Below are positions 6,066 to 7,840 of a stretch of DNA of 64,000 nucleotides, piece by piece. The stretch lies in NCBI GenBank assembly GCA_964384205.1, contig CAYLKS010000003.1, forward strand, positions 12,337 to 76,336, given 5' to 3'. Both the position numbers and the translations under genes were made by a program. Position 1 is the first letter of the stretch; every line of letters starts with the position of its first letter. A model generated the notes under the pieces. The model was not told the origin of the DNA. It saw only the letters and a list, made by a program, of their open reading frames with translations, and searched no databases. The DNA comes from an uncultured bacterium. GTDB lineage: Bacteria; JAGOEH01; CAYLKS01.

Positions 6066-7588
6066 ATATCTTAAAAATATACAATTATCCCTATTTTTTT
6101 ATTAATGAGCAAAAATTATCTTTTGAAAATTATAAAATTAAAGATTATGCTAAATATTATGTTATATATGAAAGATTATTTTTTGAGAATCTTGAAAATA
6201 ATGAAATAATAAAAATAATTAATGCTAATATTAACTTTGATTTCTTAAGCTCCATTTATTTTAAATTTTCAAAACTTTTTTTAGAAGTTCCTATAAGGTT
6301 ATTCCTTCATATCAAACTTTTAAAAAATGATTTTGATATACACACAATAAATCTTCAGCATTTGACTAATATTGAACAGAACATATTAAATTTTTATCTA
6401 AAAAAAGAATTTCCAAAAATAACAATTATAAAAAACAACCTAAATAAAATATATTTCCTTAAATTTTTTCTGTTCTCTTTAATATATTTAGGTATACTAT
6501 CATTAAAATACTTATTTAGAAAAATCCCCGATATTACAATAGAAAAAAACCTTACCTTCTCATATCCACGTGAATATTTATATAAAAACCAAAATAATAT
6601 TACTATTTTAATACCATTTTATAACCCCTTAAAGAAAATCAAAAATTCATATAATATTATAAATCCTTTATATTATCTCAGATTAAAAAATATAGCTAAA
6701 TTAATAAAAATAGACTTTATTATTTTACATAATCTATTAAAGACTGGCAACACTTATGAAATAATTCTTGGCAAATATTTATTCTCATATTTTCAACTTC
6801 TTTATCTTTATATGGAGATTATAGAGGAAAAAATTTTAAAATCATACTCAGGTGATATTGAGTTCATATCAGCAAATAATGAATTTGCATGTGCTATAAA
6901 CTCTATTAAAAATAAAAAATATACAACTTATCATAAACAACATGGTCAAATCCAATCCCCTCTACCATATAGATCAAATTGTGATGAATTTAAAGCATGG
7001 ACAAATTATGAGAAAAATCTAATAAAAATCTACTCAAAAGATAAACACTACTCCTCAGGATATTACCCATATTTTAAAGCTAAAAATTTCGATGAAAAAT
7101 TTTATACACCACAAAATAATAAATTATCTATCACAATATTCACTAATATAATAGATGAAATTTTTGGAAAAATCCCATATCAAAACTTTCTTAATATAAT
7201 AAAAAACTTCATAGAACAATATAAATATACTTTTAATATAATAATACATATTCATCCTTATGAAGACAAAAAATTCTATAAAAACAATTTTCCTGATATT
7301 AAAATCGAACAAAATAAAGCAGAACCTATATTACAAACAACAGATATAATAATAAGTGTTTACTCAACAATAATAGTTCAAGCTTTAAATTATAAAAAAC
7401 CAATTATAGTATATAATTCATTTATAGATGAAGAAAATACCTTTATTGGTGAAATAGCTTATCAAAGAAAATTCACAAATTATAATCAATTAAATAAAAT
7501 AATTAAAAGTATTTTAGAAGAGTACAATAAAAATAAAAAAATAAATATTGAATATGAACAATATGCATTTTATAAATATTTTAAATAA
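6062..7588 (+). CDS. Hypothetical protein; C-terminal half resembles GT-B surface-polysaccharide enzymes
   Basis: 508-aa ORF, ATGA overlap with aspS. C-terminal IHIHPYE and DIIISVYSTIIVQALNYKKPII resemble the HP and 'STxxxEA' motifs of CDP-glycerol glycerophosphotransferase/sialyltransferase-like folds. Confidence 0.5.
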   Translation: MNILKIYNYPYFFINEQKLSFENYKIKDYAKYYVIYERLFFENLENNEIIKIINANINFDFLSSIYFKFSKLFLEVPIRLFLHIKLLKNDFDIHTINLQHLTNIEQNILNFYLKKEFPKITIIKNNLNKIYFLKFFLFSLIYLGILSLKYLFRKIPDITIEKNLTFSYPREYLYKNQNNITILIPFYNPLKKIKNSYNIINPLYYLRLKNIAKLIKIDFIILHNLLKTGNTYEIILGKYLFSYFQLLYLYMEIIEEKILKSYSGDIEFISANNEFACAINSIKNKKYTTYHKQHGQIQSPLPYRSNCDEFKAWTNYEKNLIKIYSKDKHYSSGYYPYFKAKNFDEKFYTPQNNKLSITIFTNIIDEIFGKIPYQNFLNIIKNFIEQYKYTFNIIIHIHPYEDKKFYKNNFPDIKIEQNKAEPILQTTDIIISVYSTIIVQALNYKKPIIVYNSFIDEENTFIGEIAYQRKFTNYNQLNKIIKSILEEYNKNKKINIEYEQYAFYKYFK

Positions 7589-7625
7589 AAAAAAGCAAGC
7601 CCACGAGGGGGCTACTCGTGGGCTT
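7587..7625 (-). terminator. Intrinsic terminator (minus strand)
   Basis: Perfect 11-bp stem AAGCCCACGAG/CTCGTGGGCTT (7597-7607/7615-7625), 7-nt loop; T-tract follows on the minus strand. Confidence 0.8.
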
Positions 7626-7681
7626 AGAGGGGGTAAAAAATCTCTCTATATTAAGGGAGGCTGTAGTCAAATAATTAATAC
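7587..7681 (-). ncRNA. Candidate small RNA with C-rich anti-SD-like tracts (copy 1)
   Basis: Candidate promoter TTGACA-17-TAATAT at 7716-7688, then TTGACTACAGCCTCCC, ACCCCCTCT and a terminator; no ORF. Confidence 0.45.
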
Positions 7682-7840
7682 TATTAAATATTAATAATAA
7701 AAATTAACAATGTCAAGTGTTTTTTTTGAATATATAAATATTTTACACTATCAATTTTTTTAACTTAAAAATATATAATAAACCTTTTATTAATCAACAA
7801 GTTAGTAATATCGAAAAAATAATGATTTAACTTACCTATT

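What the first reader, a model, noticed from the sequence alone, without database searches (positions are those of the whole stretch)
7587..7716. Candidate anti-Shine-Dalgarno sRNA, copy 1
Seen on the minus strand: TTGACA-17-TAATAT, then about 95 nt with no ORF containing TTGACT-ACAG-CCTCCC, ACCCCCTCT and a perfect 11-bp hairpin with C-rich loop (TAGCCCC) and T-tract. GC/C-rich blocks stand out in this AT-rich DNA. Known: sRNAs such as RsaE/RoxS and FsrA use single-stranded C-rich tracts to pair with SD sequences, and this genome uses AGGAG/GGAGG SDs. Inference: a stand-alone or 3'UTR-derived translational repressor RNA.
Basis: partly seen in the sequence, partly recalled or inferred. Interest (0 to 1): 0.65.

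Follow-up and report, generated by a model that had tools for sequence, protein, structure and literature searches.

The report
Candidate small RNA silencing a hydrogenase operon
Behind an acetate-kinase-like gene of an uncultured hydrothermal-vent bacterium lies what looks like a gene for a ~95-nucleotide non-coding RNA; its two C-rich stretches match, letter for letter, the ribosome-binding sites of three consecutive genes of a hydrogen-producing enzyme, so it probably switches that enzyme's synthesis off, though no transcript has been seen.

Summary
On the minus strand there is TTGACA-17-TAATAT, about 95 nt with no credible ORF, three C-rich tracts, a 12-bp GC hairpin and a U8 tail. Rfam has no match.

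The new result is specific targets. Tract 1 (UACAGCCUCCCUU) and tract 2 (UUUUUACCCCCUCUAA) are perfectly complementary over 12-16 nt to the ribosome-binding sites of hndA, hndB and hndC. These are three consecutive cistrons of an NADH-dependent [FeFe]-hydrogenase operon on contig C59.

- Such a cluster of matches arose in 1 of 1000 shuffles that kept the C-cores.
- Of about 3000 translation starts, the best five include all three hnd cistrons.
- NuoE-, NuoF- and HndB-like paralogues also rank high or carry matching sites.

A second intergenic element, on contig C35, is antisense to the hndC start region (25 of 28 nt) and to hndA codons 10-17.

My reading is an Hfq-independent, trans-acting anti-RBS small RNA dedicated to hydrogenase genes, with confidence about 0.6. 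It works like RoxS/RsaE but is not a member of that family. No RNA data and no close relatives exist, so expression and effect are inferred.

The parts
7711..7716 (-). -35 hexamer TTGACA of the predicted promoter
   Evidence: The strict promoter motif is 23 times denser in gene-directed than in orphan orientation in this genome.
7688..7693 (-). -10 hexamer TAATAT, 17-nt spacer; predicted start of the RNA at about 7682-7681
   Evidence: The start site is inferred from spacing only.
7587..7682 (-). Predicted ~95-nt non-coding RNA, from the predicted start to the U-tract
   Evidence: Fold of -24.8 kcal/mol, z = -4.5. No credible ORF. No Rfam family.
7653..7665 (-). Seed 1, UACAGCCUCCCUU (RNA nt 18-30). 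It is complementary to the RBS of hndA (12 nt), of hndC (13 nt) and of the C36 CPF_0552-family gene (13 nt).
   Evidence: Mean P(unpaired) is 0.45-0.48.
7624..7639 (-). Seed 2, UUUUUACCCCCUCUAA (RNA nt 44-59). It is complementary over 16 nt to the hndB SD plus the A of its AUG, and to an identical 16-mer inside the hndA coding sequence. It also matches 12 nt of the HndB-like gene's RBS on C63.
   Evidence: Mean P(unpaired) is 0.79.
7596..7626 (-). Intrinsic-terminator hairpin: 12 bp, with the C-rich loop UAGCCCC at 7608-7614
   Evidence: The loop is fully unpaired. It is the only terminator behind the ackA-like operon, and it is predicted for the minus strand only.
7587..7594 (-). U8 tail of the terminator. 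It overlaps the stop codon of the convergent plus-strand gene.
7841..9049 (-). Upstream ackA-like gene (acetate/propionate-kinase family, below the NCBIfam cut-off). It is the last gene of an operon whose read-through must also end at this terminator.
6062..7588 (+). Convergent 508-aa gene with weak similarity to surface-carbohydrate biosynthesis proteins. Any read-through from it would be antisense to the candidate RNA.

Best explanation
The locus most likely encodes a ~95-nt trans-acting regulatory RNA. It would be transcribed from its own sigma-70-type promoter, and also carried at the end of ackA-operon read-through transcripts, and it ends at a shared intrinsic terminator.

Two largely single-stranded C-rich seeds would base-pair with the Shine-Dalgarno and start-codon regions of hndA, hndB and hndC. 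These are three consecutive cistrons of an NADH-dependent [FeFe]-hydrogenase operon on contig C59. The seeds also fit the same 'private' RBS signatures on a CPF_0552-family gene and on NuoE-, NuoF- and HndB-like paralogues.

Duplexes of 12-16 perfect pairs (-25 to -28 kcal/mol) would keep 30S subunits off each cistron. Subunit synthesis would then fall together, without Hfq.

What is shown: the sequence features, the complementarity and its statistics, and the identity of the targets. What is inferred: transcription from this promoter, pairing in the cell, repression rather than another outcome, and the physiological signal.
For: 1. Gene-like anatomy on the minus strand: a strict promoter, about 95 nt without a credible ORF, and a strong terminator. 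In this genome, strict-promoter-plus-strict-terminator modules occur only at tRNA genes and here.

2. The terminator lies 215 nt behind the ackA-like stop, against a median of 24 nt. The seeds are therefore transcribed at least as a 3'UTR.

3. The best G/C-containing complementary matches in the whole genome fall on one operon: the 16-mer at C59 1778-1793 (hndB SD plus the A of AUG) and 1576-1591 (inside hndA), the 13-mer at 2160-2172 (hndC SD), and the 12-mer at 1268-1279 (hndA SD).

4. With the cores CCTCCC and CCCCCTC kept and the flanks shuffled, a cluster of this weight appeared in 1 of 1000 trials.

5. Among about 3000 genes, the top five translation-start duplexes are the C36 CPF_0552 gene, hndA, hndC, one unrelated gene and hndB. 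The mean is -6.9 kcal/mol with SD 3.4. A second NuoE-like and a second NuoF-like gene are also in the top 20.

6. GGAGGCUGU sits in four true RBSs in the genome: hndA, hndC, the C72 NuoE-like gene and the CPF_0552 gene, whose family is only distantly similar to TM1266 hydrogenase-system regulators.

7. Target identity: NuoE-like, HndB-like and NuoF+GltD-like subunits, and a group A6 NADH-dependent [FeFe] hydrogenase above the NCBIfam cut-off.

8. An independent intergenic element on C35 is also antisense to this operon: 25/28 to the hndC SD, AUG and first codons, and 22/24 to hndA 1308-1331. Its best start-region target in the genome is hndC, at -34.4 against the next -27.2 kcal/mol.

9. With the hnd 5' 1.1 kb as query, the only true intergenic sequences among the top 16 hits are these two elements.

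10. Seed 2 and the loop are predicted to be unpaired.

11. The genome has no Hfq, which fits the long perfect seeds.
Against: - No transcript evidence exists. No RNA run holds the stretch, and DNA runs cover it at about 2x or not at all.
- No relatives carry the element: none in the two same-order genomes and only chance hits in metagenome contigs. There is therefore no conservation or covariation test.
- Once the three tRNA promoters are set aside, orphan strict-promoter hits (6) are close to the shuffle expectation (4.7). The promoter match alone is weak evidence.
- Each single match is only marginally significant: 31.8 bits was reached by 6.7% of shuffles, and BLAST gives E of about 0.06. 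The case rests on clustering and on the targets' shared function.
- Seed 1 is partly held in a weak local hairpin.
- The catalytic-subunit gene hndD has no matching RBS.
- The genome is a 260-contig MAG with 3.8% contamination. That C3 and C59 share a cell is inferred from binning, composition and co-occurrence.
- Some RBS similarity among targets may be inherited: the hndA RBS of a same-order genome also reads GGAGGCTGT.
Confidence: 0.6

Rival explanations
1. This is only the ackA-operon 3'UTR and terminator, with no trans function. The C-rich tracts would be a decaying relic of an old inverted duplication of hnd-operon segments, and the promoter match would be chance.
For: - The hairpin is the only terminator behind the ackA-like operon.
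- Non-tRNA orphan promoter hits are near the shuffle expectation.
- The plus strand reads like a compressed hndA-end to hndC-start junction, with a gapped similarity of about 55 nt. This suggests descent from the operon.
- The C35 element has no canonical promoter or terminator and could be a second relic.
Against: - Similarity is confined to the RBS segments, which are perfect over 16 and 13 nt. The roughly 360 nt between them in the operon is missing, and the flanks are unrelated. A neutral relic should decay evenly.
- Two separate loci keep different mosaics of start-region segments from the same operon. Both lie in the orientation that is antisense to hnd and co-directional with their neighbouring genes.
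- Any transcript ending at this terminator carries the seeds anyway.
Confidence: 0.2
2. It is a generic anti-Shine-Dalgarno RNA, a global sponge or repressor of all strong SDs, with no dedicated operon.
For: - There are three C-rich tracts, including CCUCCC, which equals the 16S anti-SD core.
- About half of the genes carry a 4-mer SD core, and 12.5% carry GGAGG.
Against: - Only 32 genes have GGGAGG and 4 have GGAGGCUGU in front of the start.
- Duplex energies show a discrete group of outliers, not a continuum.
- With the cores kept, shuffled flanks lose the cluster.
Confidence: 0.08
3. The plus strand is the functional one. As a 3'UTR of the 508-aa gene it would carry two ORF-less copies of hnd ribosome-binding sites. 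These would act as decoys for whatever binds those sites, such as a protein, another RNA like the C35 element, or ribosomes.
For: - The plus strand holds the exact sequences UUAGAGGGGGUAAAAA and AAGGGAGGCUGUA with no start codon at a usable distance.
- There is no plus-strand terminator after the 508-aa gene, so read-through is likely.
Against: - The promoter and the canonical terminator are on the minus strand.
- At C35 the hnd-sense strand is antisense to both neighbouring genes, and no strong promoter drives it.
- No candidate binding partner is known.
Confidence: 0.07
4. It is a small protein gene, the 29-aa TTG frame at 7670-7581 on the minus strand.
For: The frame is open from TTG 7670 through the hairpin. 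Another note on this genome reports leaderless mRNAs.
Against: - It has a TTG start with no SD, and it sits 11-12 nt from the predicted start site, so it is not leaderless.
- The frame runs through the terminator stem and the U-tract.
- The peptide has no recognisable features.
Confidence: 0.02

Closest known systems
RoxS/RsaE (Rfam RF01820) and FsrA of Bacillales
   Same: - They use several single-stranded C-rich regions to pair with G-rich SD sequences.
- They act in redox and fermentation metabolism (RoxS adjusts the NAD+/NADH balance).
[quoted passage not shown]
- From my own knowledge, Hfq is dispensable for them. Here Hfq is absent from the genome.
   Different: - There is no sequence or structure match to the Rfam model, even at E up to 10.
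- The host has LPS genes and belongs to an isolated lineage, not Bacillales.
- The seeds are much longer (12-16 perfect pairs) and tailored to one enzyme complex rather than a broad regulon.
- No Rex or ResD-type control was identified.
OxyS-fhlA of E. coli
   Same: A small RNA limits hydrogen metabolism by pairing at two short sites of one mRNA, one at the RBS and one in the coding region (PMC2946933). Here hndA likewise has one site at its RBS and one inside its coding sequence.
   Different: - OxyS targets a transcription activator, not the enzyme subunits.
- OxyS uses 7-9-nt kissing loops and needs Hfq.
- The two RNAs are unrelated in sequence.
Phage P1/P7 c4 antisense RNA (from my own knowledge; raised as an analogue in an earlier scan note)
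   Same: A trans-acting RNA with two short seeds complementary to two sites of a target operon mRNA. The seeds occlude a ribosome-binding site, and the seed and target sequences are evolutionarily linked.
   Different: c4 is a phage immunity function processed from the same transcript family as its target. The case here is chromosomal, with targets on another contig and metabolic genes.
3'UTR-type sRNAs that share the terminator of the upstream mRNA (DapZ, CpxQ class; from my own knowledge)
   Same: It uses the terminator of the upstream operon, so both its own promoter and read-through or processing could yield the seed-bearing RNA.
   Different: The promoter here lies in the intergenic region, about 125 nt after the stop codon, rather than inside the coding sequence. 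No processing site can be predicted.

Membership tests
RsaE/RoxS (Rfam RF01820) | Match to the Rfam covariance model at or above the gathering score | tested here: not met
   No family reached its gathering score in the window. At E up to 10 over 7400-7900 only chance-level hits appeared, the best being ncr982 at 19.6 bits against a gathering score of 50. RsaE was not among them.
RsaE/RoxS (Rfam RF01820) | Two or more unpaired C-rich regions (CCCC/UCCC) ahead of and within terminal hairpins | tested here: met
   The tracts are CCUCCC, CCCCCUC and the loop UAGCCCC. P(unpaired) is 0.45-0.48, 0.79 and 1.0 respectively.
RsaE/RoxS (Rfam RF01820) | Bacillales host and Rex/ResD (SrrAB)-controlled promoter | tested here: not met
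   The genome carries LPS genes (lpxK, a lipid A acyltransferase, a heptosyltransferase) and has no close relatives. No Rex-like box with 3 or fewer mismatches lies upstream of the promoter.
Trans-encoded base-pairing sRNA (generic kind) | Own promoter and intrinsic terminator flanking a short non-coding stretch | tested here: met
   Tested in silico only: TTGACA-17-TAATAT, a 12-bp hairpin plus U8, and no credible ORF.
Trans-encoded base-pairing sRNA (generic kind) | Complementarity to target translation-start regions beyond chance | tested here: met
   The four-site cluster on the hnd operon was reached in 1 of 1000 core-preserving shuffles. The hnd cistrons rank in the top 5 of about 3000 genes.
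Trans-encoded base-pairing sRNA (generic kind) | A discrete transcript of the predicted size | not testable with these tools
   No RNA run holds the stretch. The organism appears in DNA metagenomes at about 2-8x only.
Trans-encoded base-pairing sRNA (generic kind) | Conservation, or seed-target covariation, in relatives | tested here: inconclusive
   No homologue was found in 40 relatives, in the two same-order genomes or in metagenome contigs. The AckA-like neighbour has no homologue above 36% identity among 5.8 billion proteins.
3'UTR-sharing sRNA (DapZ/CpxQ class) | Shares the terminator of the upstream mRNA | tested here: met
   There is no other terminator between the ackA-like stop (7841) and the hairpin at 7626-7596.
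   nhmmer and BLAST find only self-matches. Copy 2 has no hnd complementarity and no outlier target. Its setting also differs: it sits in a co-directional gap between lpxK and rsmB.
Anti-hnd element pair (window 7587-7682 and C35:32830-32925) | Both are antisense to start regions of the same operon and share ACAG-N-CUCCC plus a GC hairpin with a UAGCCC loop | tested here: met
   The stems differ in sequence, but both pair and both show the same loop start.

The most novel reading that the evidence does not exclude
The window element and its sibling on contig C35 would be 'target-derived' regulators. In this reading they are miniaturised, inverted mosaics of the hnd operon's own translation-start regions, kept by selection. 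Together they would give each cistron of a multi-subunit NADH-dependent [FeFe] hydrogenase, and a few paralogues marked by the same private RBS signatures, its own perfectly matched anti-RBS seed. That would amount to a dedicated, Hfq-free post-transcriptional off-switch for H2 metabolism in a deep-branching vent bacterium.
Probability: 0.3. Interest if true: 0.75.

Novelty: new member of a known kind. Interest (0 to 1): 0.6.

Why it matters
In the papers I could search, small RNAs that pair directly with the ribosome-binding sites of [FeFe]-hydrogenase subunit genes are not described. Known control of such enzymes is transcriptional or through sensory hydrogenases. If the prediction holds, it gives a compact rule for silencing a whole enzyme complex: one RNA, one seed per cistron.

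It would also show how a regulator can arise from pieces of its own target. And it supplies a concrete, testable regulator-target pair for an uncultured lineage with no close relatives in the collections searched here. The pairings are long and exact enough to test in E. coli with reporter fusions, without culturing the organism.

Tried and rejected
- Rfam, at gathering scores and at E up to 10: nothing.
- nhmmer and BLAST of both 'copies' against the genome: only self-matches, so there is no repeat family.
- Motif TTGACT-N4-CCTCCC genome-wide: 3 hits, one of them inside a coding sequence.
- General enrichment of C-rich pentamers within 70 nt upstream of terminators: none, 12 C-rich against 13 G-rich among 195.
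- AckA-based scans of genome and metagenome contigs: nothing. A homologue search found no AckA-like protein above 36% identity, so no syntenic relatives are available.
- The AspRS scan returned only hits of about 45-58% identity from many phyla.
- Reads and contigs from the DNA runs: depth too low over 7606-7673 to show strain variation.
- RNA runs: none.
- Antisense-of-RBS pattern in the two same-order genomes: counts equal to the control. The one perfect extra hit was the antisense strand of another gene's start.
- Gapped two-seed pattern in metagenome contigs: 120 or more chance hits, none resembling the element.
- Rex-box idea for the promoter: no site.
- Small-protein reading: rejected.
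- Copy 2 targets (a sodium:solute symporter and etfB): single 13-nt matches with no cluster.
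Full report
**Setting.** The window is contig C3:12337-76336 of a 3.5-Mb, 28% G+C, 260-contig genome (98.7% complete, 3.8% contaminated). The DNA is found only in hydrothermal-vent and marine metagenomes, at low depth. The lineage is isolated:
- Only two genomes of the same order are held.
- AspRS finds hits of about 45-58% identity scattered over many phyla.
- The neighbouring AckA-like protein has no homologue above 36% identity among 5.8 billion proteins.
- Genes for lipid A and LPS (lpxK, a lipid A acyltransferase, a heptosyltransferase) point to a diderm cell.

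**Observation.**
- TTGACA (7716-7711), 17 nt, then TAATAT (7693-7688).
- UUGACUACAGCCUCCC (7670-7655).
- ACCCCCUCU (7634-7626).
- A 12-bp hairpin (7626-7596) with loop UAGCCCC, followed by U8 (7594-7587).

The element lies in a 252-nt gap between convergent genes. One is an ackA-like gene (7841-9049, minus), the last gene of a long operon. The other is an unassigned 508-aa gene (6062-7588, plus). There is no credible ORF inside and no Rfam family. The predicted RNA folds at -24.8 kcal/mol, z = -4.5.

**Is it more than chance?** I called genes roughly (2989 ORFs, 92% coding) and scanned the whole genome.
- A strict promoter motif is 1.24/kb where it points at a gene start, 0.054/kb where it points at a gene end, and 0.02-0.035/kb in coding DNA. 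The motif therefore marks real promoters.
- Only nine 'orphan' hits exist, against 4.7 ± 2.2 in shuffles. Three of them drive tRNA genes. The promoter match alone is thus weak evidence.
- Strict promoter followed by a strict terminator occurs only at two tRNA genes and at this locus.
- Terminators normally sit 24 nt (median) after a stop codon. This one sits 215 nt after it.
- The intergenic strand ranks third in the genome for C-rich hexamers that are not the antisense of an SD.

**The decisive result: specific targets.** I searched the genome for exact complementarity to the 95-nt RNA and weighted matches by base composition. The best matches containing G/C all fall on contig C59:
- UUUUUACCCCCUCUAA (RNA nt 44-59) pairs with UUAGAGGGGGUAAAAA at C59 1778-1793 and at 1576-1591.
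- UACAGCCUCCCUU (nt 18-30) pairs with AAGGGAGGCUGU(A) at 1268-1279 and at 2160-2172, and once more on contig C36.

Reading C59 shows an operon made of a 2-hydroxyacid dehydrogenase, a NuoE-like subunit (hndA, TTG 1281), a small 2Fe-2S subunit (hndB, ATG 1793), a NuoF+GltD-like subunit (hndC, ATG 2177), and a group A6 NADH-dependent [FeFe] hydrogenase (hndD; NCBIfam 891 bits, cut-off 765).

Three of the four sites are the Shine-Dalgarno regions of hndA, hndB and hndC. For hndB the match reaches the A of the AUG. The fourth site lies inside hndA, over the codons for VRGGKK.

**Statistics.**
- Single matches are only marginal. The score of 31.8 bits was reached by 6.7% of shuffles, and BLAST gives E of about 0.06.
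- The clustering is not marginal. With the cores CCTCCC and CCCCCTC held fixed and the flanks shuffled, a 2-kb cluster of equal weight arose once in 1000 trials.
- I ranked duplex energies for every candidate start of about 3000 genes (mean -6.9, SD 3.4 kcal/mol). The top five are the C36 gene (-28.0), hndA (-26.8), hndC (-26.8), one unrelated gene (-26.1) and hndB (-25.6).
- The top 20 also hold a second NuoE-like gene (C72 4364) and a second NuoF-like gene (C59 7490).
- A second HndB-like gene on C63 has GGGGGUAAAAAA in front of its AUG, a 12-nt match to seed 2.
- GGAGGCUGU occurs 11 times in the genome. Four are true RBSs: hndA, hndC, the C72 NuoE-like gene and the C36 gene.
- The C36 protein belongs to the CPF_0552 family (above cut-off). 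It is only distantly similar, below threshold, to the TM1266 'iron-only hydrogenase system regulator' family. It sits among desulfoferrodoxin, ferritin and rubrerythrin genes.
- Only 32 genes carry GGGAGG before the start. The RNA is therefore not a generic anti-SD.

**A second anti-hnd element.** The intergenic strand richest in C-tracts, C35:32771-33056 (minus), resembles this element.
- It has ACAGACUCCCC and a 10-bp GC hairpin with loop UAGCCCUC. These are the only two strong intergenic hairpins in the genome with a UAGCCC loop.
- Its reverse complement is 25/28 identical to the hndC SD, AUG and first codons (C59 2162-2189, with the AUG destroyed). It is 22/24 identical to hndA 1308-1331.
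- Its best start-region target in the whole genome is hndC, at -34.4 against the next -27.2 kcal/mol.
- With the hnd 5' 1.1 kb as query, the only true intergenic sequences among the top 16 hits are these two elements.
- The C35 element has no canonical promoter or terminator of its own. It sits just upstream of a perfect promoter of a PAS histidine-kinase gene.
- At both loci the strand antisense to hnd is the one co-directional with the neighbouring genes.

This element (28318-28463) lies between lpxK and rsmB. It shows no homology to copy 1, no hnd complementarity and a smooth continuum of weak targets. I do not count it as a family member.

**Mechanism.** The most economical reading is a trans-acting anti-RBS RNA.
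- Seed 2 and the hairpin loop are predicted to be open. Seed 1 is half-open in a weak local hairpin.
- Duplexes of 12-16 perfect pairs need no chaperone, and the genome has no Hfq.
- The RNA can come from its own promoter. It is also contained in any ackA-operon transcript, since no other terminator exists.
- Covering the SD and the start codon should block initiation on hndA, hndB and hndC. hndD has no site and would follow only through coupling or mRNA decay.
- The trigger is unknown. No Rex-like box lies at this promoter, although Rex-like boxes precede two hydrogenase clusters.

**Rivals.**
- A neutral relic of an inverted hnd duplication fits the gapped 55-nt resemblance of the plus strand to the hndB-hndC junction. 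It does not explain why only the RBS pieces stay perfect, or why two loci keep different mosaics.
- A plus-strand decoy reading cannot be excluded by sequence, but the promoter and terminator are on the minus strand.
- A 29-aa peptide is very unlikely.

**Comparison with known systems.** The element works like RoxS/RsaE and FsrA, which use C-rich regions on SD sequences, act in redox metabolism and may bind several RBSs of one operon (PMC10433868). It also recalls OxyS-fhlA, where a small RNA pairs at an RBS and at a coding-region site of one mRNA in hydrogen metabolism (PMC2946933). It is not a member of either family. I found no paper describing a small RNA that pairs with [FeFe]-hydrogenase subunit RBSs. 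That is a limited search, not proof of absence.

**Limits.**
- There are no RNA data.
- There are no relatives for a conservation or covariation test.
- This is a MAG. That C3, C35 and C59 share one cell rests on binning, on composition (C59 is 30.0% G+C against 27.9 ± 1.9; tetranucleotide rank 60 of 85) and on co-occurrence in the same runs.
- Part of the RBS similarity among targets may be inherited. The hndA RBS of one same-order genome also reads GGAGGCTGT.

**Verdict.** My confidence in the anti-hnd small-RNA reading is about 0.6. I class it as a new member of a known kind, with interest 0.6.

Noticed in passing
G000 contig C35:32830-32925, minus strand (L062 2331-2426): A second intergenic element antisense to the hnd operon. 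It is 25/28 to the hndC SD, AUG and first codons and 22/24 to hndA codons 10-17. It folds into a 5-bp hairpin with loop CUCCCC and a 10-bp hairpin with loop UAGCCCUC. It has no canonical promoter or terminator and lies just upstream of a 12/12 promoter of a PAS-HisKA-HATPase kinase gene.
   Followed up: yes
The hairpin's T-tail overlaps the promoter of an apparently leaderless rsmB. It is not homologous to copy 1 and has no clustered targets. What it does is open: an lpxK terminator, or a separate RNA.
   Followed up: partly
L063 (C59) 1576-1591 and 1778-1793: The 16-mer TTAGAGGGGGTAAAAA occurs twice within 200 nt, in different reading frames. One copy encodes VRGGKK inside hndA, using a GGG glycine codon (expected to be rare at 28% G+C; not measured). 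The other forms the hndA stop codon plus the hndB SD. It could be a second binding site for the RNA or a coincidence, which I roughly estimate at 1% given the protein sequence.
   Followed up: partly
L064 (C36) 1302-3287: A cluster of desulfoferrodoxin, ferritin, an 84-aa CPF_0552-family protein, a small HTH protein and rubrerythrin. The CPF_0552 gene carries the same 13-nt RBS signature (AAGGGAGGCTGTA) as hndC and is the top predicted target of seed 1.
   Followed up: partly
C59:173-190 and C72:1165-1182: Clostridial-type Rex-like boxes (TTGTTAANNNNTTAACAA, 1 mismatch each) lie upstream of two hydrogenase gene clusters. Only 12 such sites exist in the genome. I did not check for a rex gene.
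   Followed up: no
G000 contig C63:12104-15300: A gene run that, from N-terminal motifs alone (no domain search was run), looks like a sensory-hydrogenase-type regulatory cluster: an Fe-S protein, a PHP-like protein and an HATPase-like protein. An HndB-like gene follows, whose RBS GGGGGTAAAAAAG-ATG matches seed 2 over 12 nt.
   Followed up: partly
G000 contig C5:2130-2620 (minus): An orphan strict promoter (TTGACA-16-TATAAT) is followed by a good SD (AGAGGAG) and a 10-codon ORF (MELSSQYQCD), with no larger gene downstream. This may be a micropeptide or a leader peptide.
   Followed up: no
whole genome G000: No Hfq homologue was detected (Pfam PF17209), while the control genomes gave the expected hits.
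   Followed up: yes
L076 (G001:C13) 1596-1620 and L075 (G002:C313) 1570-1590: The hndA ribosome-binding site reads AGGAGGCTGTATTG in one same-order genome and AGGAGGCAGTGTTG in the other. Both genomes look more G+C-rich by eye (not computed). The GGAGGC(U/A)GU signature with a UUG start is therefore older than this lineage's AT drift.
   Followed up: partly
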